Shown here piece after piece: positions 30,924 through 40,023 of a stretch of 50,987 nt of DNA (position 1 is the first letter of the stretch; the number at the start of each line of letters is the position of its first letter). Location of the stretch: the sequence record OK272486.1. One strand, 5' to 3'. Source of the stretch: Escherichia phage JLBYU10. Both the position numbers and the translations under genes were made by a program. The notes under the pieces are model-generated. The model did no database searches and was not told the DNA's origin. It was given only the letters and a program-made list of their open reading frames with translations.

Positions 30924-31190
30924 ATGAGCAAAACTTTAAAACTTAAAGTAACTGGCGTTTGCATGATTATTATGGACGGTAAGCGTTATCATCCTGGTGA
31001 TGAAATTGAAATTGAATCAGATCGCATTAATGATTCCGCAATTGAATACCTGATCGCTCGCGGCGATGTGGAAGTTAAAGACAATTCCGAAATTAACGAG
31101 CAAATCAAGGAGAAAGCGGAGAAGAAGCGCAAAAAAGATCCTACCGAGGGCAAGAGCCGCAAAGAGCTAGAGGATGGCGGCGAATATTAA
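30924..31190 (+). CDS. hypothetical head protein
   Basis: ORF track. Confidence 0.4.
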
Positions 31191-31195
31191 TAATT

Positions 31196-31214
31196 GGGGC
31201 GCTTATGCGCCCCT
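31196..31214 (+). terminator. hairpin GGGGCGC-TTAT-GCGCCCC (weak terminator/attenuator), part of repeated hairpin-RBS cassette
   Basis: Near-identical cassette at 47395..47435. Confidence 0.35.
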
Positions 31215-31236
31215 TGTCATATCTGGAGAAAACAAA

Positions 31237-31656
31237 ATGGTAGATGAATTTTATACAGACGCTGAAATCGTTCAGCAAATCGTAAAGTTGGCCCCACCAA
31301 TGCAGCAGGTTGATCCCGATTTAATTGTGGCATGGATTGAGCTTGCTAAAGAATTTGTTTGCAAAAAACGGTTTAAAAACTCATACCCTAAAGCGGTTGC
31401 GCTTTACACTCTTCACCTTATGACCTTAGACGGGGCAATGAAACAGGAAGGTGAAAGCGTAGAAAGCTATTCCCGCCGCGTTGCATCGTTCACTCTGACT
31501 GGTGAGTTTAGTCAGACGTTTGATCGAATTTCTTCCGATACAAGCGGAAAGCAGATCCGACAAACGCCGTGGGGCAAAATGTACGAAGTGTTAAACCGTA
31601 AGCACGGTGGCGGCTTTGGCCTTGTGACTGGATTGCGCCGGAGATGCTGCCGATGA
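31237..31656 (+). CDS. head-tail connector/adaptor protein (putative)
   Basis: ORF 31174..31656 trimmed to Met with GGAGAAAACAAA RBS; position. Confidence 0.4.
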
Positions 31657-32027
31657 ACTACAATGAGATTGCAAGAATGGCTACGGATGGGATTAACTTT
31701 TTCAGCGATGCTAACGGTATGTTTAAGTGCATCACGCAGCAGGGAGGGGTTGAGATTATCGGCGGAGAGGAAGTTACCAAGCCGGAGATTTCAGTGATGA
31801 TAAAGGGGCTTGTTAGATCTCCGAGGACTAGAGAGGTTGACGGTGAAACAATCCGAGTAACCGACAAGTTGGGGATATTCACCAATGAAACTGAGATCAA
31901 AAATGGTTATCAGATTGAAATTGATGGCGATCGTTACGTTGTCGTTGAAGCAAGACCAGTCAGGCAGACTAACATCACGGCAGCTTATCGTCCGATATTA
32001 AGGAGGATTGCAGTGCATGGCGGATAA
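31644..32027 (+). CDS. head-tail joining protein (putative)
   Basis: ORF track; position. Confidence 0.4.
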
Positions 32028-32460
32028 TTATAAGATCAGGGAATTTCACGGTGATATAAGCAGGTGGATTGATTCAGTAAGCAGCGGCCTTGTTGATTGC
32101 GTTGAAATGTTCGCGACAAACGTCCACGAGGATCTTGTAAAGCGTTCGCCAGTTGATACGGGCCGATATAAAGCTAACTGGCAGGTAACAGCAAACAAGC
32201 CGCCGCTATATGCTCTCAATCAATACGATCGCGATGGTAGTAAAACCATTGCAGAAGGCAAGCGAGCAATATATGCAATCATGCGGGGCGGTGGCGCGGT
32301 GCGGTCAATCTATTTTTCAAACATGCTTATTTACGCCAATGCGCTTGAATACGGGCATTCAAAACAAGCGCCGTCCGGCGTGCTGGGAATCGTGGCGGTA
32401 AAGCTGCGATCCTATATGACTAAGGCAATAAAGGATTCGAGGGCAAAAAATGCACTATGA
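32008..32460 (+). CDS. neck/tail terminator protein (putative)
   Basis: ORF track; position. Confidence 0.4.
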   Translation: MQCMADNYKIREFHGDISRWIDSVSSGLVDCVEMFATNVHEDLVKRSPVDTGRYKANWQVTANKPPLYALNQYDRDGSKTIAEGKRAIYAIMRGGGAVRSIYFSNMLIYANALEYGHSKQAPSGVLGIVAVKLRSYMTKAIKDSRAKNAL

Positions 32461-32851
32461 TTTAATGTTATCGGCAAGAAAGGCGCTGGCGGAGGAATAT
32501 GAATCACGATTCAAGATCGCCTATGAAAACGTTGATTTTGTTCCGCCTGGTGATGGTTCGATGTGGTTAAAATTTGACTACATGGAAGCCGACACAGATC
32601 GCATATCTCTTGATAGAAAATGCGTTTCTTATATCGGATTGGTTCAGGTTGGAATTGTTATGCCTCCTGGCGGCGGCACTGATAAAGCGCGTTTGCTGGC
32701 TAAAGAGATTGCGAGATTTTTCTATGATGGTAGAATGTTTGAAACTGGCTATATTAGCGAGGGGGCAAACGTCCACGCATTACTAAAAAGTGAAACAGGT
32801 TGGTTCTTACCGATCCGTTTCAGTGTTAGGCTTGACACAAAGGAGGAATAA
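32450..32851 (+). CDS. tail completion protein (putative)
   Basis: ORF track; position. Confidence 0.4.
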   Translation: MHYDLMLSARKALAEEYESRFKIAYENVDFVPPGDGSMWLKFDYMEADTDRISLDRKCVSYIGLVQVGIVMPPGGGTDKARLLAKEIARFFYDGRMFETGYISEGANVHALLKSETGWFLPIRFSVRLDTKEE

Positions 32852-32853
32852 TC

Positions 32854-33516
32854 ATGCACTTGCCTAATGGTTCTCAAATTTTCATCGGCGTTAATATGGG
32901 TGAGCCAATTAGCGCGACTCAAATCAGCAATGCTGATAATCCTGTTTTTACAACCGAAAACACTCAAAGCATCAAAAAAGGCGCTTATGTTCTTATTGAA
33001 ACATCTTCTTGGGGCAAACTTGTTAGTCGAGTGCTTCGAGTTAAGGAAGTATCAGATAATGTAAGTGTTACTCTTGAGGGTGTTAGCACTAAAGATACAA
33101 ACGTATTTCCAGAAGGACAGAACACAGCAACCTTCCGAGAAGTAAAATCATGGGTAGAGATTCCTTGCGTGCAGGATCTTGCGCAGGACGGCGGCGAGCA
33201 ACAGTATTACACTTATCAGTGTTTGGCTGACGACCAGGAGCAGCAGTTACCGACCTATAAGAGCGCCGTTTCTCTTACCTACACTTTCGCGCATGAATAT
33301 GATAACCCGATTTATCCGATCTTGCGCGAGGCTGAGGAATCCGGCGACGTAACAGCTTTGCGTATGTACGTGCCGAAAGCTAAAGAGATGCGTTGCTGGG
33401 CTGGCGTATTGTCTTTTAATGACATTCCGCAAACAACTATGAACGAAATGGAAACTGTTTCCCTTTCTGTATCTCTGAAAGTCCGATTCACGTTCTTACC
33501 TTCCGACGTTAAGTAA
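32854..33516 (+). CDS. major tail protein
   Basis: 220 aa; followed by terminator then chaperone/tape measure genes. Confidence 0.55.
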   Translation: MHLPNGSQIFIGVNMGEPISATQISNADNPVFTTENTQSIKKGAYVLIETSSWGKLVSRVLRVKEVSDNVSVTLEGVSTKDTNVFPEGQNTATFREVKSWVEIPCVQDLAQDGGEQQYYTYQCLADDQEQQLPTYKSAVSLTYTFAHEYDNPIYPILREAEESGDVTALRMYVPKAKEMRCWAGVLSFNDIPQTTMNEMETVSLSVSLKVRFTFLPSDVK

Positions 33517-33543
33517 AACAAGGGGCGTTGCGCCCCTTTTTTC
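33517..33543 (+). terminator. rho-independent terminator after major tail gene
   Basis: GGGGCG-TTG-CGCCCC stem followed by T-run. Confidence 0.6.
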
Positions 33544-33581
33544 ATTCCTGTAAAATCAATCTATCAAATAAATTAATTCCA

Positions 33582-33601
33582 CTTTTAACAAAAAGTGCTA
33601 T
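33582..33601 (-). repeat. motif copy in inverted orientation (CTTTTAACAAAAAGTGCTAT) abutting RBS of chaperone gene
   Basis: Reverse complement of motif followed immediately by AAGGAG and ATG at 33616. Confidence 0.45.
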
Positions 33602-33615
33602 AAGGAGATCTTAAG

Positions 33616-33933
33616 ATGGCAAAGATGAAACTAACGTTAGGCCCACTTCCTGATTTTAAGCTGCCTGTTTCTTTCGTGCTTCCAAATGGTGATGAGCAAG
33701 TTATTGTTTTTACCGTGCGCCACAAGAAGGCAAGCGAAATTCACGAACGATACACGGCAGAAAAGCCGATGAGCGACGTAGAAATGATCACCTTCCTTGC
33801 TTCCGGTTGGGATTTGGAAGATGAATTTAACGAGGAAAACGTTGCTAAATTGCTGGATTATTACCCGTCTGCGTCATTATCGCTGACTGGTCATTATATG
33901 AAAGCACTTGCGGGGCAGCGGGTAAAAAACTAA
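33616..33933 (+). CDS. tail assembly chaperone (lambda G-like)
   Basis: ORF immediately upstream of tape measure gene; ends 3 nt after slippery heptamer. Confidence 0.55.
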   Translation: MAKMKLTLGPLPDFKLPVSFVLPNGDEQVIVFTVRHKKASEIHERYTAEKPMSDVEMITFLASGWDLEDEFNEENVAKLLDYYPSASLSLTGHYMKALAGQRVKN

Positions 33934-34250
33934 AGCGGGCGGTTTACCTGTTTTACCTCAAGCCGCCAACTGACGCACAATTAGAGGCCGTCGGCCTATC
34001 CCGTTCAGACTACGAAGGGGAGGATCCGCCGGAGGTAATTTTTGATGAATCAATGTTTCAATCTTGGGATCTGTTTTGCGCTATGCAGACGCAATGGAGA
34101 TCGACTAGCGGCAGTGTGTATGGGTTCGACTATAACGTTTTGCCTATGCTTTTTGACATTTACAAGATTGAGGATCGGGAGATGGCGCTAAATGATTTGC
34201 GCATCATGGAACAAAAGGCGCTAGAAATGATTCATTCAAACAAAACATAA
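33616..34250 (+). CDS. tail assembly chaperone frameshift product (lambda GT-like fusion, ~211 aa)
   Basis: -1 frame after heptamer joins ORF 34053..34250 with no stop; conserved arrangement before tape measure genes. Confidence 0.45.
33924..33930 (+). other. candidate -1 programmed ribosomal frameshift site A_AAA_AAC
   Basis: X_XXY_YYZ heptamer just before stop; -1 frame open to 34250. Confidence 0.5.
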
Positions 34251-34271
34251 GCGCCGCGAGGCGCTTTTTTA
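34250..34271 (+). terminator. rho-independent terminator/attenuator
   Basis: GCGCC-GCGA-GGCGC stem followed by T6. Confidence 0.5.
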
Positions 34272-34289
34272 ATATCTGGAGGTTTTAAA

Positions 34290-36971
34290 ATGGCTGAAAA
34301 ATACGCTGGCCTAACGCTAGGCGTTGACGTGTCGCAGGTCAACAATGCTGTTAAATCATTGCAGCAATTCAAGAAGGCAAACGACGACGCAAAAAAAAGC
34401 GTTAATGAATTTGTTGATTCTGAGGTTGTGGCCCGACAGCAAGCAAAACAGCTTGCCGAAGAACTGGCGCGCCAGAAAGCAGAATTTAAGAAAATCCAGG
34501 AGTCAATTGATCCCACTGCATCAAAGATGGATAAGCTGCGAAAGGCAGCGACACAGCTTGATGCGCTATGGAAAAAGGGCGTTGTTCCTGATCAGACTTT
34601 TTTTGAGCTTGGATCAATTCTTGAGACGCAGCAAAACAAGCTGATCGCAACAAAAAAAGCGATGACGGAGGAAGGCCGCGCGGCGCTTGAGGAATCAAAG
34701 AACAAAGCGCGTGCAGCGGAAGAGGCTAAAAAATTCGTCCAGGCTTTGCGTGAGCAGGAAGAAGCAGCCGGAAAAAGCAAGTCTGAATTGCTGGAAATGA
34801 AAGCGGCACAGCTTGGTGTTAGCCAGGAGGCAGCGCCTTACATCGCAAGGCTGAAAGAGCAGGAAAAGCAGATCCAAAAACTTGGAATTTCTACGGGCCA
34901 ATACAAACAAGCAATGGCGCAATTGCCAATGCAGATCACAGACGTGGTGACTTCACTTGCTTCTGGAATGCCTGTTTGGTTGGTCGCAATCCAGCAGGGC
35001 GGACAGATTAAGGATTCTTTTGGTGGCGCATCCAATGCTTTAAAAGCGTTGCTATCTTTCCTGAATCCGGTAAACGTGGCGTTTGGCTTGCTTTCCGGTA
35101 CGCTGGCAATTGCTGCATATAATGCCTACAAAACACAGACAGAGTTTGAGGCAATTAAAAAAACCGTTCAGGAAACAACTGGCTTGACTGGTGATTTTGC
35201 CGAAAAGATTGCTACCGGAATACAGGAGCTTTCCGACAAAACAGGCGAAAGCGCCGAAGATCTGGCAAAGGCTTACATCACAACGAAAGACGGCGCGAGC
35301 GAGGCGATTAAAAAACTGGTTGACGTTGGCATGACTTATGATGACGCAAAAAAGAAAGTCAACGAGTACAAGGGCGCGTCTAGCTTTGTCAGCTTGAATA
35401 ACGAAATTGCAAACCACAAAAACAAAGTCCTTGAGTTGGGCGATTCGTGGTATGAGGTTTTGAAAGCGAAGCGTGATTACGCTTCCCCGTCCGGCGGCCT
35501 GTTAGGTAAGGAGCTTGGCTATGTTAACCCTATGCTTAAGTTTGCACTTAACACTTATGAAGACATTGGAAAGGTCGTAAAAGATGCGAATAAGGACATG
35601 GCGGAACGAGCGGAGCGAATCGACAAAGAAAACCTGGCCTTAAACAGAGTGCGCGCAGCACAGGAGGCTTTAAACAAAGCTATTGAGGATCAGAAAAATG
35701 TGGCGCGTTCGGCTGATGAAGAACTGAAAAAGCGCGCGGCTGAAAACGTGGAGTTTAGGCGCAAAGAGCTTGAGGAAATCAAGAAGCAGGAGCAGAAAAA
35801 GAAAGAGGCTAAAGGTGGAATAGTTCGCGGCCCGACTGAGCAGCTTGATAAAGAGTTGTACGTTTTAAAAGCGCAACTGGAGATGCTTAAAGAGCATCGC
35901 ACTGTTAACGATGTTATTTCTCGCCAGCGTAAATCATTATGGAGTATCGAAAAGCAGATCGAGATCCTGGAGGAAGCGCAGAGCAAGCGTAAATTGACCG
36001 GAGCGGAACAGGCGCTACTAAACGAGCAAAAAGCCGTTCTTGAAATGGCAAGGCAAAAAGCGGAGCTAGGGGATCAGATTGTTTTGCAGGAGCGCAAAAA
36101 CAAGCTGGAGCAAGATAGCATTAAGTTTATCCGTGAAACTCAGGCGGCTATTGATGTGCTTGGCCTTAAGCAACTTGGCTACACTGAAAAGCAGATCGAG
36201 CGTGAGCTAGAGTTACGCAAGCTGCGCACCGACTACGAGTCGCAAGGCGGAAGCGTTAGCGATGAAGTTTTTCAGCAAATGGAGGCGAAACTTAAGCAGT
36301 ATTATCAGACACAGGATGAGGTTCAAGGCAACTGGTTGGCAGGAGCAAAAAACGCATGGGAGATGTTCGCGGAAGATGCAAACAATGCCTATGGCAATGT
36401 TCAGCAGATCGCAAGCGAGGCGTTAAACGGCCTTACAAACCAATTAGCGAATTTTATCGCTACTGGCAAGGCAAACTTTAAAGACTTCTCGACGGCTATC
36501 ATCAAAATGATTATTCAGATGATCACGAAAATGGTCGTCTTTAATGCGTTATCTGGTCTGATGGGTGGTCAAACCTGGACGATGGGGAGCTTGCTTAAGA
36601 ATATTGGCGGATTTGCTGGCGGTGGATACACTGGCGACGGCGGGAAGTATGAGCCAGCCGGAATTGTCCATAAAGGTGAATTTGTCATGACGAAGGAGGC
36701 GACTCAGCGTATTGGGGTAGGAAACTTGTACCGCATGATGCGAGGCTATGCTAACGGCGGCGTTGTTGGTAGTTCCGGCTATACTGGCGGTGGCGCTGTA
36801 ACTGGTGGAGCACCTCAATTTAACATCGGCGGGATTGATGTTAGCATCACTAACGGAAACGATCCGAAGGGCATCGAAACTGGTGTTAAGATGATCTTTA
36901 CTGATATGATTAAACGTTCCTGTATGCAGGGCGGCGAGGTTTACGAATTTGTTATGAGCAAGCGAGGTTGA
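34290..36971 (+). CDS. tail tape measure protein
   Basis: 893 aa, long coiled-coil-rich, Gly-rich C-terminal region; after chaperone pair. Confidence 0.75.
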   Translation: MAEKYAGLTLGVDVSQVNNAVKSLQQFKKANDDAKKSVNEFVDSEVVARQQAKQLAEELARQKAEFKKIQESIDPTASKMDKLRKAATQLDALWKKGVVPDQTFFELGSILETQQNKLIATKKAMTEEGRAALEESKNKARAAEEAKKFVQALREQEEAAGKSKSELLEMKAAQLGVSQEAAPYIARLKEQEKQIQKLGISTGQYKQAMAQLPMQITDVVTSLASGMPVWLVAIQQGGQIKDSFGGASNALKALLSFLNPVNVAFGLLSGTLAIAAYNAYKTQTEFEAIKKTVQETTGLTGDFAEKIATGIQELSDKTGESAEDLAKAYITTKDGASEAIKKLVDVGMTYDDAKKKVNEYKGASSFVSLNNEIANHKNKVLELGDSWYEVLKAKRDYASPSGGLLGKELGYVNPMLKFALNTYEDIGKVVKDANKDMAERAERIDKENLALNRVRAAQEALNKAIEDQKNVARSADEELKKRAAENVEFRRKELEEIKKQEQKKKEAKGGIVRGPTEQLDKELYVLKAQLEMLKEHRTVNDVISRQRKSLWSIEKQIEILEEAQSKRKLTGAEQALLNEQKAVLEMARQKAELGDQIVLQERKNKLEQDSIKFIRETQAAIDVLGLKQLGYTEKQIERELELRKLRTDYESQGGSVSDEVFQQMEAKLKQYYQTQDEVQGNWLAGAKNAWEMFAEDANNAYGNVQQIASEALNGLTNQLANFIATGKANFKDFSTAIIKMIIQMITKMVVFNALSGLMGGQTWTMGSLLKNIGGFAGGGYTGDGGKYEPAGIVHKGEFVMTKEATQRIGVGNLYRMMRGYANGGVVGSSGYTGGGAVTGGAPQFNIGGIDVSITNGNDPKGIETGVKMIFTDMIKRSCMQGGEVYEFVMSKRG

Positions 36972-37324
36972 TAATGAAGCTGGATCAGTTTAAGTGGTGC
37001 ACGCAGGTTCAGAACGGTGGCGGGTCCATGACGTCATCAAATAACGATCGAGAGATTGCATTCGGTAACGGATACACACAGGTAGCATCTGGAGGCTTTA
37101 ACACAATCCGGCGAGAGTTTAGCATTGTTTACGCTGGGCTTGATTACAGAGATGTTGTCAAGTTCCTAAATGAGCACAGACTAAAACCTTTCTTGTGGAT
37201 TATGCCTGATGGAAGCCCTGGATTGTTCAGAGTGAAAAGCGGTAGCGTCGGCCTTACTCCATTGTCGCCAACCGTTCAGGAAGTAAAAGCCACTTTTACG
37301 GAGCAATTTACATCAATGCAGTAA
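36968..37324 (+). CDS. minor tail protein (lambda M-like)
   Basis: ~118 aa ORF directly after tape measure gene. Confidence 0.5.
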   Translation: MIMKLDQFKWCTQVQNGGGSMTSSNNDREIAFGNGYTQVASGGFNTIRREFSIVYAGLDYRDVVKFLNEHRLKPFLWIMPDGSPGLFRVKSGSVGLTPLSPTVQEVKATFTEQFTSMQ

Positions 37325-37327
37325 TTT

Positions 37328-37353
37328 AAAGCCGCCTTTGTGCGGCTTTTTTC
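37328..37353 (+). terminator. rho-independent terminator
   Basis: AGCCGC..GCGGCT stem followed by T-run. Confidence 0.5.
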
Positions 37354-37386
37354 TTGATGTTACAATGAGCAAAAAGGAGGTAGAAA

Positions 37387-38148
37387 ATGGCTAATAAAGA
37401 ATCAGGTAGAGTTGAATTTGAGAACTGCCTACAAAGTTTGTACCCAGGTGAAATTATAACGCTTGTAGAGATTGACGGGACGAAGTTCGGGGCAAATATT
37501 TACCGATTTCACAATGAGAACATCTCTTATACTGCCGAAGAATTAATGCAAGCGCAGCAAACCGGAATCTTGCCGCCGAAAGATATTATTTTTCAGGGTG
37601 AGGTTTACGGAGCGCGGCCTTTCGGTGTGAGCGGGATTAACTTCACAAGTAACGGCAGGGCAGATAAGCCTCAGCTTATAGTGTCAAACCTTGACAGCAG
37701 GGTTAGCGCCATGATCAGAAACTACAATGGCATGATGCAAGCAAAGGTGACTTTCTGGATTACGGCAAAGGAATTTATAGGAGAAGGCGGAGCAATCAAA
37801 GATGGCGCTTACAGAAAATTGGTTTATTACATTGAGCGCCCAAGCCAGTATAATAGAGAGGTGGCGAAATTTGATCTGACATCGCCTTACGATATGGATG
37901 GATTAATGATCCCGCCGCGCATCACTCAAAGCGTTTGCTATTGGGCGCAAAGGGGGTGGTACAGGAGCGGAAAGGGTTGCTCTTATAACGGATCGGCAAT
38001 GTTCGATAAAGACAATAAGCCAGTAACAGATCCATCACAAGACTATTGCGCAGGAACTGTAACGGCTTGCAAATTGAGATTCGGTCAGCAAAACGAGTTG
38101 GATTTCGGCGGCTGTGCGGTGGCATCACTGCTACGGAGGAATCAATAA
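37387..38148 (+). CDS. minor tail protein (lambda L-like, C-terminal Cys cluster)
   Basis: 253 aa with C-terminal cysteines CYWAQ...GCSYNG...YCAGTVTAC. Confidence 0.55.
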   Translation: MANKESGRVEFENCLQSLYPGEIITLVEIDGTKFGANIYRFHNENISYTAEELMQAQQTGILPPKDIIFQGEVYGARPFGVSGINFTSNGRADKPQLIVSNLDSRVSAMIRNYNGMMQAKVTFWITAKEFIGEGGAIKDGAYRKLVYYIERPSQYNREVAKFDLTSPYDMDGLMIPPRITQSVCYWAQRGWYRSGKGCSYNGSAMFDKDNKPVTDPSQDYCAGTVTACKLRFGQQNELDFGGCAVASLLRRNQ

Positions 38149-38879
38149 TGATTAGTGCAAAAATTAAACTTGAAATAATGCAGCACGTTAAAGAGGAATA
38201 CCCTAAAGAGGCTTGCGGCGTCATAACTCAAAAGTCACGGGTACAGAAATATCACCGCATAACCAACGTTCATGACGATCCAGAAAATCATTTTGAAATG
38301 GACGCCGTAGAATACGCTGAATCGCTCGACAAAGGCGAATTAATCGCGGTGGTGCATTCCCATTGCGGGGATGGTGCTAGCACGATACCGAGCGCGCACG
38401 ACTCATGTATGTGCGATGAAATGGGTGTGTCGTGGATTATAGTGTCATGGCCCGAAGGTGATATGAGAATTGTCGAGCCGCAGGAGAGGCCGCTTATCGG
38501 TCGCCCGTGGTCGCTGGGGTCGTTCGATTGCTGGGGTCTTATCATGGCATGGCATAAACAGCACGGAGTAGTATTGAATGACTTCCGAAAGCCTTACGAG
38601 TGGTGGAGGTCAGAATATGGTGAAAATCTTTACCAGGATAATTATTTGAAAGAGGGATTTGTTGAAACTAACGAGCCTCCAAAACCTGGTGATATGGTGA
38701 TTATGCAGCTATCATCGCCAGTCTGGAATCATGCGGGGATTTATTTGGGTAACAATCAGCTATTACATCATGCGTTTGGAAAGCTATCTCGCATTGACTT
38801 GTATTCTGGATGGTATCAGGAGCACACTGTAAAAATTTGCCGACATAAGGATCTGAAATATGACATTGAAAGTAATTAA
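38148..38879 (+). CDS. tail assembly protein (lambda K-like, MPN/JAMM plus NlpC/P60-like)
   Basis: ORF 38046..38879 trimmed to Met with GGAGG RBS; EACGV and HSHCGDGASTIPSAHD JAMM-like motif. Confidence 0.55.
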   Translation: MISAKIKLEIMQHVKEEYPKEACGVITQKSRVQKYHRITNVHDDPENHFEMDAVEYAESLDKGELIAVVHSHCGDGASTIPSAHDSCMCDEMGVSWIIVSWPEGDMRIVEPQERPLIGRPWSLGSFDCWGLIMAWHKQHGVVLNDFRKPYEWWRSEYGENLYQDNYLKEGFVETNEPPKPGDMVIMQLSSPVWNHAGIYLGNNQLLHHAFGKLSRIDLYSGWYQEHTVKICRHKDLKYDIESN

Positions 38880-39456
38880 GCTATCTGGTTCCCTGGGGCG
38901 TAGATTTGGCGTCTTTCACAAAATGGCGGTTGACTCATACCCCGAAGCAATACGCGCGTTATCTTCCCAGGTTGAAGGGTTCAAAGACTACATGCAAAGC
39001 GAAGTAGGATCGCGCATGAAATACGCTGTATTCGTTGATGGAAAAAACATTGGTCAGCATGATGAAAAATCATGGAAGTGCGCGCGAGAGGTTCGAATAG
39101 TTCCTGTTCCAACTGGTTCTAAGTCCGGCGGCCTGTTCAATGTTGTTTTTGGTGCTGTAATTATGGCTACTGCGTTCATTACTGGCGGTGGAAGCCTGGC
39201 GCTTATGGGCGCTTTTGCATCTTCCGCATTTATGATGGGTGGTGCTATAGCGCTTGGCGGTGTCATGCAAATGATCTCACCGCAGCAGGGCGGAATGAAA
39301 CTGCAAAGCCAATCAGCGGAAAACAAGCCTTCTTACGCTTTCGGCGGTGCAGTAAATACCACGGCGGCAGGTTATCCGGTTCCGTTGCCATATGGATATA
39401 GGACAGTCGGCGGCGCGATCTGGTCGGCTGGCAGCTACGCAGAGGACAAAGCATAA
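38860..39456 (+). CDS. tail assembly protein (lambda I-like)
   Basis: ORF between K-like and J-like genes; Gly/Ala-rich hydrophobic C-terminal half. Confidence 0.5.
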   Translation: MTLKVIKLSGSLGRRFGVFHKMAVDSYPEAIRALSSQVEGFKDYMQSEVGSRMKYAVFVDGKNIGQHDEKSWKCAREVRIVPVPTGSKSGGLFNVVFGAVIMATAFITGGGSLALMGAFASSAFMMGGAIALGGVMQMISPQQGGMKLQSQSAENKPSYAFGGAVNTTAAGYPVPLPYGYRTVGGAIWSAGSYAEDKA

Positions 39457-39500
39457 ATAGCACAATATGTTAAAGCGAAAACGGATTTTCGCTTTACAAT
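39457..39500 (+). promoter_or_regulatory. Motif-type promoter-like unit (ATAGCACAATATGTTAAAG), hairpin GCGAAAA..TTTTCGC, TACAAT
   Basis: Motif adjacent to TAA stop of I-like gene; precedes HNH gene inserted in tail module. Confidence 0.45.
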
Positions 39501-39517
39501 TAATTAAGGAGGTGATC

Positions 39518-39994
39518 ATGTGGCGTGATATTTTTTATTATAATGACGGTAAGTTATTTTGGGCTGTAGACGTAGGAAGAAGGATAAAGAAAGGAAGTGA
39601 GGCAGGAAGCGTAAGCAAAAGCAAGAAGAGTGGAGAAAGGGTTAGAATATCAATTGATGGAGAAAGATACTACAGGAGCAGGATAGTTTGGGAAATTCAT
39701 AATGGAGAAATACCGCATGGAATGCAAGTTGATCACATAGATCACAACACAATGAACGACAATATTTCAAACTTAAGACTTGTTAGAATGAGTGTTAACA
39801 ACAAGAATAAGTCGCTTTACAGGAACAGCAAGACGGGAATTACTGGGGTAAACTTTAGTCGCGGAAAATGGATTGCAAGAGCAAAGATTGATGGTGTTAG
39901 GCATGAATTTTACTTTGATTCATTTCAGGATGCGGCAGAAAAGAGGATAGAGATTGAAGTTTTAAACAAATTCCACATAAACCACGGAAAGTAG
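39518..39994 (+). CDS. HNH homing endonuclease (paralog of 11806..12333)
   Basis: ORF 39467..39994 trimmed to Met with AAGGAGG RBS; VDHIDHNTMNDN HNH signature; shared C-terminal ...HGK. Confidence 0.65.
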   Translation: MWRDIFYYNDGKLFWAVDVGRRIKKGSEAGSVSKSKKSGERVRISIDGERYYRSRIVWEIHNGEIPHGMQVDHIDHNTMNDNISNLRLVRMSVNNKNKSLYRNSKTGITGVNFSRGKWIARAKIDGVRHEFYFDSFQDAAEKRIEIEVLNKFHINHGK

Positions 39995-39997
39995 ATT

Positions 39998-40023
39998 TAA
40001 CCAGCATTGCGCTGGTTTTTTTG
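39998..40023 (+). terminator. rho-independent terminator after HNH gene
   Basis: CCAGC..GCTGG stem followed by T7. Confidence 0.55.

What the first reader, a model, noticed from the sequence alone, without database searches (positions are those of the whole stretch)
33616..34250. Candidate -1 programmed frameshift in the tail assembly chaperone
The chaperone ORF ends three nucleotides after a slippery heptamer A_AAA_AAC (33924-33930); the -1 frame stays open from there to 34250, which would give a ~211-aa fusion. This matches the conserved G/GT arrangement upstream of tape measure genes in long-tailed phages, though the specific heptamer and the ~100-residue extension should be verified.
Basis: partly seen in the sequence, partly recalled or inferred. 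Interest (0 to 1): 0.45.

Follow-up and report, generated by a model that had tools for sequence, protein, structure and literature searches.

The report
T1-like phage tail-chaperone −1 frameshift
The phage's tail assembly chaperone gene ends in a slippery A_AAA_AAC site where some ribosomes probably slip back one base to make a longer fusion protein; this is real but is the ordinary G/GT arrangement already reported for T1-like phages.

Summary
The 105-aa chaperone ORF (33616-33933, Pfam Phage_TAC_4) ends GTA AAA AAC TAA. The heptamer A_AAA_AAC (33924-33930) is in the right register. The −1 frame is open to 34250, giving a 211-aa (24.3 kDa) fusion.

The window is a Warwickvirus (Drexlerviridae, T1-like). 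Comparative evidence is strong:
- Across 43 distinct T1-like sequences, the heptamer's AAA and AAC are the only two of 20 conserved degenerate codons that never vary.
- The three-base periodicity of substitutions switches from the 0 frame to the −1 frame exactly at the heptamer.
- The −1 frame has no ATG/GTG/TTG before 34053, yet the 41 codons upstream of 34053 evolve as coding sequence.
- The same two-frame layout recurs in more than 1000 phage records. Distant relatives carry A_AAA_AAC or G_GGA_AAC next to the stop codon.

A hairpin 7 nt downstream is conserved in most relatives. It shows little covariation and is weak in this window.

The frameshift is already reported for T1-like phages (Stevie, Skenny) and is annotated as a joined CDS in Stevie, in the same subfamily. 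Warwickvirus records simply omit it. Verdict: real and ordinary. No experiment confirms it in any T1-like phage.

The parts
32854..33516 (+). Tail tube (major tail) protein gene, upstream neighbour
   Evidence: Pfam Phage_tail_3, E=4e-62
33520..33538 (+). Terminator-like GC hairpin plus T-run between the tail tube gene and the chaperone gene
   Evidence: The homologous site is annotated as a rho-independent terminator in T1 RefSeq.
33602..33607 (+). Shine-Dalgarno AAGGAG, 8 nt upstream of the G start codon
   Evidence: Read from the sequence
33616..33933 (+). G: tail assembly (tape measure) chaperone ORF, 105 aa, 11.9 kDa, 0 frame
   Evidence: Pfam Phage_TAC_4, E=5e-31. Named 'tape measure chaperone' or TfmA in public records.
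33924..33930 (+). Slippery heptamer A_AAA_AAC. The 0-frame codons are AAA (Lys) and AAC (Asn), which are the last two sense codons of G.
   Evidence: Invariant in all intact T1-like, Dhillonvirus, eiAU and enterobacterial prophage homologues seen. These are the only two of 20 conserved degenerate codons that use a single codon in 43 distinct sequences.
33931..33933 (+). 0-frame stop codon TAA, directly abutting the heptamer
   Evidence: The adjacency is conserved (TAA, TGA or TAG) across lineages down to 27% protein identity.
33938..33967 (+). Candidate stimulatory hairpin: GGCGGUUU (33938-33945) pairs with AAGCCGCC (33960-33967), with a 14-nt loop, 7 nt after the heptamer
   Evidence: Folds (-13.2 kcal/mol, z=-1.3). 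90% of cells paired in 26 T1-like sequences but little covariation. Same 7-nt spacer and GGCGG/CCGCC stem in T1 (z=-4.8), Dhillonvirus and eiAU. Inferred, not shown.
33930..34250 (+). T: the -1-frame extension, 106 codons plus TAA. It is translated only as the C-terminal part of the 211-aa G-T fusion.
   Evidence: Pfam DUF1799, E=7e-12; phrog_17368 and phrog_680. Coding periodicity in the -1 frame from the heptamer onward. No ATG/GTG/TTG before 34053.
34249..34266 (+). Terminator-like hairpin plus T-run overlapping the T stop codon, upstream of the tape measure gene
   Evidence: The homologous site is annotated as a terminator in T1.
34290..36971 (+). Tape measure protein gene (893 aa), downstream neighbour
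   Evidence: Pfam TMP_2 (E=9e-37) and Tape_meas_lam_C (E=4e-22)

Best explanation
This is a programmed -1 ribosomal frameshift of the lambda G/GT type in the tail assembly chaperone gene of a T1-like (Warwickvirus) phage.

Most ribosomes translate 33616-33930 and terminate at TAA 33931-33933. This gives the 105-aa chaperone G.

A minority slip back one base. This happens with tRNA-Lys on AAA and tRNA-Asn on AAC, or one step later with these tRNAs in the E/P sites and the stop codon in the A site. The tRNAs re-pair with AAA AAA, and the ribosome continues with CTA at 33930. The product is a 211-aa fusion, ...GQRVKN-LKRAVYLF..., that carries the T (DUF1799) domain.

By analogy with lambda, many G molecules and a few G-T molecules coat the tape measure protein. 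The T domain then recruits the tail tube protein. Neither protein ends up in the virion.

What is shown: the frames, the heptamer register, its synonymous-site conservation, -1-frame coding constraint starting at the heptamer, absence of a start codon, the protein families and the gene order.

What is inferred: that slippage occurs and at a low rate, that the downstream hairpin and the adjacent stop codon help, and what G and T bind.
For: - Frames and register.
- Protein families: G matches Phage_TAC_4 and the extension matches DUF1799. One 213-position PHROG profile is matched by G at positions 1-107 and by T at positions 109-211.
- Gene order is terminator, tube, G/T, tape measure, M, L, K, I.
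- tblastn with the fusion finds 1124 phage records. In the 60 rows sampled, 58 matches are split into two pieces, which means two reading frames.
- A_AAA_AAC plus a stop is invariant in T1 itself and in every intact T1-like locus examined, while neighbouring synonymous sites vary freely.
- Only the heptamer's AAA and AAC are single-codon among 20 conserved degenerate codons in 43 distinct sequences.
- Positional entropy by codon position is 0.62/0.42/1.47 in the 0 frame upstream of the heptamer. It is 0.36/0.23/1.06 in the -1 frame for 33934-34052, the same as after ATG 34053.
- Variation in the first six codons after the heptamer is synonymous in the -1 frame.
- The -1 frame has no ATG/GTG/TTG from 33849 to 34052.
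- Distant homologues keep the junction but change the motif. Dhillonvirus, eiAU and 29 enterobacterial prophage loci have A_AAA_AAC. Ralstonia, Pseudomonas and Paenalcaligenes relatives have G_GGA_AAC. MUC-5 and Taid have A_AAG.
- A phage of the same subfamily, Stevie, has a joined CDS for this product. Papers state the frameshift for T1-like phages (PMC4319613, PMC6763657).
- A_AA.A_AA.C works in E. coli at low efficiency and is used by IS1 (PMC4066793).
- The predicted T-domain fold matches the C-terminal parts of UniProt 'tape measure chaperone' fusion entries from other siphophages.
Against: - No experimental detection of a G-T fusion exists for any T1-like phage in the literature I could search.
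- A_AAA_AAC is an inefficient motif in E. coli (PMC4066793).
- The hairpin in this window is weak: z=-1.3, and it ranks in the top 7% of 40-nt windows in the tail-gene region (31000-40000). It is absent in some relatives (L011-13, L040, L044). It shows almost no covariation and overlaps conserved codons.
- The heptamer alone is not over-represented in the window.
- Most public Warwickvirus records annotate two separate genes.
- The exact fusion sequence is not in the 15-billion-protein collection.
Confidence: 0.9

Rival explanations
1. Two independent genes. T is translated on its own from ATG 34053 as a 65-aa protein, as annotated in many public records, and no frameshift occurs.
For: Records such as JLBYU16 and tunus annotate 34053-34250 as a separate CDS. 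The 65-aa protein exists as a database cluster. The Met at this position is conserved among T1-like sequences.
Against: - The 41 codons upstream of 34053 have the same -1-frame coding periodicity as the codons after it.
- Pfam DUF1799 and the PHROG matches begin upstream of this Met.
- The nearest SD-like GGAGG (34031-34035) lies 17 nt from the ATG, which is too far.
- Gene callers give this ORF lengths from 63 to 136 aa in different relatives, so there is no consistent start.
- The Met is absent in Webervirus and more distant homologues.
- This model does not explain the invariance of the heptamer at synonymous sites.
Confidence: 0.04
2. Transcriptional slippage. RNA polymerase adds an extra A in the A6 run, and the edited mRNA encodes G-T in a single frame.
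For: The site is an A-run of 6 here and 7 in prophage relatives. Two public contigs have one extra A that fuses G and T in frame (L150, L168).
Against: - From my own knowledge of bacterial transcriptional slippage, runs of about 9 or more identical bases are needed. Six is too short.
- Homologues in Ralstonia, Pseudomonas and Paenalcaligenes use G_GGA_AAC, and MUC-5 and Taid use A_AAG. These have no long homopolymer but fit tRNA re-pairing.
- The C at position 7 and the exact reading register are invariant. That matters for ribosomal slippage, not for polymerase slippage.
Confidence: 0.03
3. Termination-reinitiation or initiation at a non-canonical start. T would begin just after the G stop, for example at CTG 33948 preceded by GGCGG, as a separate protein of about 100 aa.
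For: The G stop and the start of T homology are adjacent. There is an SD-like GGCGG 5 nt upstream of CTG 33948. One database entry is a 100-aa version of T (P0019).
Against: - The six codons between the heptamer and CTG 33948 (L K R A V Y) are conserved as amino acids, and the nucleotide changes there are synonymous in the -1 frame. They are therefore translated.
- CTG starts are very rare in E. coli.
- This model does not explain why the heptamer is invariant, or why distant relatives replace it with other slippery motifs at the same place.
Confidence: 0.03

Closest known systems
Phage lambda G / G-T tail assembly chaperones (-1 frameshift at G_GGA_AAG)
   Same: The position between the tail tube gene (V) and the tape measure gene (H) is the same. 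Both have a short chaperone ORF with a -1-frame extension that has no start of its own. Both have a heptameric slippery site at the very end of ORF1 and lambda-like M, L, K and I genes downstream. The expected low fusion-to-G ratio matches the roughly 30:1 G:GT ratio quoted in PMC5009743.
   Different: The Pfam families differ: Phage_TAC_4 and DUF1799 here, Phage_TAC_2 and Phage_tail_T in lambda. No sequence relationship is detectable by hhalign (probability 0.3%). The heptamer is A_AAA_AAC rather than G_GGA_AAG. The 0-frame stop abuts the heptamer here but lies five codons later in lambda. The extension is 106 aa here and about 144 aa in lambda.
Tape measure chaperone frameshift of T1-like phages (Citrobacter phage Stevie, Klebsiella phage Skenny; T1 gp40/gp39)
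   Same: These are direct homologues. Stevie belongs to the same subfamily (Tempevirinae) and has the same A_AAA_AAC plus TAA. Its record has a joined CDS giving a 210-aa product. The frameshift is stated in PMC4319613 and PMC6763657. T1 itself has the identical heptamer, stop and hairpin.
   Different: None of the seven Warwickvirus and T1 records inspected carries the joined CDS. The fusion sequence of this phage is not in the protein collection. The window's hairpin has lost the inner CUG/CAG pairs present in most relatives.
IS1 InsAB' frameshift (A_AAA_AAC) in E. coli
   Same: It uses the same heptamer in the same host translation system. The frameshift is proven, low-level and has no established stimulator. 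It sets a low amount of a fusion protein (PMC4066793).
   Different: It is a transposase rather than a virion assembly chaperone, and the proteins are unrelated.
Acinetobacter phage Loki gp12/gp13
   Same: [quoted passage not shown] The UniProt fusion entry appears only as a weak, non-significant match to the T-domain model (E=0.46).
   Different: It is a distant phage with a different host, and the frameshift is likewise only predicted.

Membership tests
G/GT-type tail assembly chaperone frameshift (Xu, Hendrix & Duda 2004 class) | Two overlapping ORFs located between the major tail (tube) gene and the tape measure gene | tested here: met
   Tube gene 32854-33516, G/T 33616-34250, tape measure gene 34290-36971
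G/GT-type tail assembly chaperone frameshift (Xu, Hendrix & Duda 2004 class) | [quoted passage not shown] | tested here: met
   The -1 frame is open from 33849 to 34250. There is no ATG/GTG/TTG before 34053. There is no well-spaced SD for 34053.
G/GT-type tail assembly chaperone frameshift (Xu, Hendrix & Duda 2004 class) | A slippery sequence in the correct register within the overlap, conserved among relatives | tested here: met
   A_AAA_AAC at 33924-33930. It is invariant at synonymous sites in 43 distinct T1-like sequences. Alternative slippery motifs occur at the same junction in distant relatives.
G/GT-type tail assembly chaperone frameshift (Xu, Hendrix & Duda 2004 class) | The extension is under protein-coding selection in the shifted frame, starting at the shift site | tested here: met
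   The codon-position entropy switch. Synonymous-only variation in the first codons after the heptamer. Pfam and PHROG hits.
G/GT-type tail assembly chaperone frameshift (Xu, Hendrix & Duda 2004 class) | Both the short and the fused products are made in vivo, with the fusion at a few percent | not testable with these tools
   Needs a western blot, mass spectrometry or a reporter assay. No such data for T1-like phages turned up in the literature searches.
G/GT-type tail assembly chaperone frameshift (Xu, Hendrix & Duda 2004 class) | Both products are required for tail assembly and are absent from virions. G binds the tape measure protein and T binds the tube protein. | not testable with these tools
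   Inferred by analogy with lambda (PMC5009743)
Pfam PF08748 Phage_TAC_4 (tail assembly chaperone) | Score above the curated gathering threshold over the full-length profile | tested here: met
   107.9 bits against a cutoff of 21.1; residues 1-105 match profile positions 1-124 of 124
Pfam PF08809 DUF1799 (the T-domain family of this lineage) | Score above the curated gathering threshold | tested here: met
   45.9 bits against a cutoff of 26; fusion residues 128-206. All 30 homologues found carry PF08809.
Lambda gpG / gpT protein families (PF06894 / PF06223) | Sequence membership in the lambda families | tested here: not met
   The window proteins do not hit these families. Lambda G and T do. 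hhalign probability is 0.3%. This is the same mechanism in different protein families.
Canonical -1 PRF signal (heptamer + spacer + 3' structure) | A stable downstream stem-loop or pseudoknot 5-9 nt from the heptamer, supported by covariation | tested here: inconclusive
   The hairpin lies 7 nt downstream at -13.2 kcal/mol, z=-1.3. It is conserved in 21 of 26 T1-like sequences but has only 2 double-sided changes and is confounded with coding. It ranks in the top 7% of windows in the tail-gene region.

The most novel reading that the evidence does not exclude
The 0-frame stop codon that directly abuts the heptamer (A_AAA_AAC-UAA) may be a functional part of the signal rather than just the end of the gene. 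It is conserved from T1-likes to Ralstonia and Paenalcaligenes relatives at about 27% protein identity.

On this reading, slow termination with the stop in the A site gives the E/P-site tRNA-Lys and tRNA-Asn time to slip -1. This would be a '-1 shifty stop'. The G:GT ratio would then depend on release-factor activity and on the hairpin 7 nt downstream. It would also explain how an intrinsically poor E. coli heptamer delivers enough fusion protein.
Probability: 0.25. Interest if true: 0.4.

Novelty: already known. Interest (0 to 1): 0.12.

Why it matters
The practical value is for annotation. Most Warwickvirus and T1 records, including RefSeq T1, list G and a truncated 'T' as separate genes or omit T. 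The 211-aa product is missing from protein databases. [quoted passage not shown]

Mechanistically it adds nothing new to the G/GT paradigm. The one small open point is the family-wide pairing of a low-efficiency AAC-ending heptamer with an abutting stop codon and a hairpin at a fixed 7-nt distance. That would be a compact system for studying how weak bacterial slip sites are tuned.

Tried and rejected
- **Single-sequence statistics.** The heptamer count is 27 observed against 22 expected. The global fold z-score of 33924-34010 is -0.64. Neither supports anything on its own.
- **Mechanical control for -1 extensions.** 20 of 159 open stretches have a -1 extension of at least 100 codons. I rejected this control as uninformative, because overlapping real genes inflate it.
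- **Upstream SD-like stimulator.** The G-rich stretch 33912-33922 is not conserved: the relatives use other synonymous codons there.
- **Covariation test of the hairpin.** It is conserved but has almost no compensatory changes, so it remains a candidate only.
- **Remote homology to lambda GT by hhalign.** None was found. Only a 13-residue motif resemblance appears (GLDYNVLP against GLTYTVLS), and it is not significant.
- **Sequence search of the PDB with G and with T.** No relatives were found.
- **Exact look-up of the fusion protein.** It is absent from the collection.
- **Search for a joined CDS.** None was found in the 7 Warwickvirus, T1 and lambda records and the 11 more distant records inspected. 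Stevie is the only one that has it.
- **Loci that seemed to lack the -1 extension.** L039/L127, L043, L092 and L129 have 5 A's instead of 6, with further indels in L043. I take these as probable homopolymer sequencing errors, not counter-examples.
- **Not done.** I did not predict the G-domain structure, because the Pfam match was decisive.

Full report
**1. The observation.**
- The ORF 33616-33933 encodes 105 aa and ends ...CAG CGG GTA AAA AAC TAA.
- A_AAA_AAC occupies 33924-33930 in the X_XXY_YYZ register. AAA and AAC are the last two sense codons, and the stop codon follows directly.
- The -1 frame is open from 33849 to the TAA at 34248-34250. The +1 frame closes after 13 codons.
- Slippage on the heptamer gives ...GQRVKN-LKRAVYLF.... 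The product is 105 + 106 = 211 aa and 24.3 kDa, against 11.9 kDa for G alone.

The single sequence is not statistically remarkable. AAAAAAC occurs 27 times in the window against about 22 expected. About 0.12 in-register heptamers are expected in the 27-codon overlap. A 106-codon open frame has P of about 0.004.

**2. What the window is.** The region is 99.6% identical to several Escherichia phages of the genus Warwickvirus (Drexlerviridae, Tempevirinae), which are T1-like siphophages.

The gene order is canonical. It runs tail terminator (32450-32851), tail tube protein (32854-33516), the G/T pair, tape measure protein (34290-36971), then homologues of lambda M, L, K and I.

G is a Pfam Phage_TAC_4 tail assembly chaperone (E=5e-31). 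The extension matches DUF1799 (E=7e-12). One PHROG profile of 213 positions (phrog_17368) is matched by G over positions 1-107 and by the extension over positions 109-211. Full-length fusion proteins are therefore already present in phage annotation.

**3. Comparative evidence that the -1 frame is translated from the heptamer onward.**

*Two-frame layout.* A tblastn search with the fusion found 1124 phage records. In the 60 rows sampled, from 100% down to 27% identity, 58 matches are split into two pieces, meaning two frames.

*Invariance of the heptamer.* T1 itself (gp40/gp39) and every intact T1-like locus examined carry AAAAAAC followed at once by a stop codon, while neighbouring synonymous positions vary freely. 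Among 43 distinct T1-like sequences, 20 codons near the end of G have a conserved, degenerate amino acid. Only two of these use a single codon everywhere, and they are the AAA and AAC of the heptamer. The preceding codon always ends in A although its amino acid alternates between Val and Ala.

*Switch in coding periodicity*.

| Region | Frame | Entropy at codon positions 1/2/3 |
|---|---|---|
| Upstream of the heptamer | 0 | 0.62 / 0.42 / 1.47 |
| 33934-34052 | -1 | 0.36 / 0.23 / 1.06 |
| After ATG 34053 | -1 | 0.35 / 0.18 / 1.01 |

The first six codons after the heptamer (L K R A V Y) vary only at sites that are synonymous in the -1 frame.

*No start codon.* The -1 frame has no ATG, GTG or TTG between 33849 and 34052. 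The SD-like GGAGG at 34031-34035 is 17 nt from ATG 34053. Gene callers give this ORF anything from 63 to 136 aa in different relatives.

*Distant relatives.* They keep the junction at the homologous position (...R-x-K/G-N | L-x-x-A-A...) but change the motif:
- A_AAA_AAC plus stop in Dhillonvirus, Edwardsiella phage eiAU and 29 enterobacterial prophage loci.
- G_GGA_AAC in Ralstonia, Pseudomonas and Paenalcaligenes relatives.
- A_AAG in Klebsiella phage MUC-5 and Pectobacterium phage Taid.

Different tRNA-re-pairing motifs at one conserved junction is the signature of ribosomal slippage. It also argues against transcriptional slippage, because several of these motifs have no long homopolymer.

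**4. Possible stimulators.** A hairpin begins 7 nt after the heptamer. GGCGGUUU (33938-33945) pairs with AAGCCGCC (33960-33967) at -13.2 kcal/mol.
- In favour: the same 7-nt spacer and a GGCGG/CCGCC-closed stem occur in T1 (z=-4.8), Dhillonvirus and eiAU. In 26 distinct T1-like sequences 90% of cells are paired, against 31-56% when the partner is slid.
- Against: there are only two double-sided changes, and the arms encode conserved residues (R-A-V and K-P-P). Some relatives lack the stem (L011-13, L040, L044). In this window it is weak, with z=-1.3 and a rank in the top 7% of 40-nt windows in the tail-gene region.

I treat the hairpin as a candidate, not as shown. An upstream SD-like element is not conserved.

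The 0-frame stop directly abutting the heptamer is conserved across the whole family. In lambda it lies five codons later. From memory, 'shifty stop' effects are known for other frameshift sites. Whether the stop contributes here is untested.

**5. Mechanism.** The best-supported model (confidence 0.9) is tandem -1 slippage of tRNA-Lys and tRNA-Asn on A_AAA_AAC. It yields a minor G-T fusion alongside abundant G.

A_AA.A_AA.C and G_GG.A_AA.C are low-efficiency motifs in E. coli. They are nonetheless functional and are used by IS elements, including the proven IS1 case that has no known stimulator (PMC4066793). Low efficiency fits the roughly 30:1 G:GT ratio known for lambda (PMC5009743).

The roles of the two products are inferred by analogy with lambda only. 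On that analogy G coats the tape measure protein and the T domain recruits the tube protein.

The T-domain model (pLDDT 78, with a confident core at residues 40-103) matches significantly the C-terminal parts of UniProt 'tape measure chaperone' fusion entries from Klebsiella phage Solomon and Serratia phage Scapp. Entries from Salmonella phage Shivani, Acinetobacter phage Loki and Caulobacter phages also appear, but only at E-values of 0.04 or weaker. The model matches nothing meaningful in the PDB.

**6. Rivals.**
- *Independent initiation at ATG 34053* (0.04). It fails to explain the coding constraint upstream of 34053 and the invariance of the heptamer.
- *Transcriptional slippage* (0.03). 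Six A's is too short, and non-homopolymer motifs occur in relatives.
- *Reinitiation at a non-canonical start such as CTG 33948* (0.03). It conflicts with the constraint on the six codons between the heptamer and that CTG.

**7. Comparison with what is known.**
- It works like lambda G/GT, but it is not a member of the lambda protein families. Lambda has Phage_TAC_2 and Phage_tail_T, and hhalign gives a probability of 0.3%.
- It is a direct homologue of the tape measure chaperone pair of T1-like phages, where the frameshift has been stated in print for Citrobacter phage Stevie (PMC4319613) and Klebsiella phage Skenny (PMC6763657).
- Stevie belongs to the same subfamily, and its GenBank record has a two-piece joined CDS for the 210-aa product.
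- The Warwickvirus and T1 records I inspected lack the joined CDS. The exact fusion sequence is absent from the large protein collection.
- I found no experimental confirmation for any T1-like phage.

**8. Verdict.** The feature is real and strongly conserved, and it is an already-known kind of signal in an already-described phage group. What remains is an annotation gap, plus a minor mechanistic question about the abutting stop codon and the hairpin. Interest is low (0.12).

Noticed in passing
L046-L048, L153-L167 (Klebsiella Webervirus loci), at the junction homologous to window 33922-33933: Webervirus relatives carry GCA AAA GTY TAA instead of GTA AAA AAC TAA. This leaves only an A_AAA tetramer and no canonical heptamer. 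Two related contigs (L151, L152) keep AAAAAAC. The -1 extension of 104 codons is intact, and UniProt holds a 210-aa fusion entry for Klebsiella phage Solomon.
   Followed up: partly
L150:1523-1530 and L168:1523-1530 (enterobacterial prophage-like IMG/VR contigs): These contigs have eight A's instead of the seven seen in 29 related prophage loci. This puts G and T in one reading frame as a 217-codon fusion with no short G. It is either a homopolymer sequencing error or a natural GT-only variant. L168 has a further break in T.
   Followed up: partly
L039/L127, L043, L092, L129 (IMG/VR T1-like contigs): The A-run at the slip site is 5 instead of 6, and L043 has additional indels elsewhere. These are most likely homopolymer sequencing errors at exactly the slippery site.
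   Followed up: partly
window 33520-33538 and 34249-34266: Two strong terminator-like GC hairpins with T-runs bracket the G/T cassette, after the tube gene and overlapping the T stop codon. The homologous sites are annotated as rho-independent terminators in T1 RefSeq. Partial termination could help set the tube: chaperone: tape measure stoichiometry.
   Followed up: partly
window 34042-34191 (+), 0 frame of G: A 49-aa Cys-rich ORF (TTG ATG...) lies inside the T region, with GGAGG (34031-34035) about 9 nt upstream of its ATG at 34045. It is probably spurious. The substitution periodicity there follows the -1 (T) frame, not this frame.
   Followed up: partly
window 39467-39994 (+): A 175-aa ORF directly after the lambda-I-like tail assembly gene contains an H-N-H-like motif (...VDHIDHNTMNDNISNLRL...). 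It may be a homing endonuclease inserted among the tail genes. This is read by eye from the translation only.
   Followed up: no
window 33982-34025: A second local structure is stronger than the hairpin next to the slip site, at -16.4 kcal/mol for a 40-nt window. It includes GAGGCCGUCGGCCU and lies about 50 nt downstream of the heptamer. That is too far for a classical stimulator, and it was not analysed further.
   Followed up: no
lambda T (L058) against the window T domain, residues 169-181 of the fusion: The most conserved motif of the T extension (YGFDYNVLPMLF) aligns with lambda T SGLTYTVLSLFF. It is the only hhalign segment and is not significant, but it might hint at very remote homology between DUF1799 and Phage_tail_T.
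   Followed up: partly
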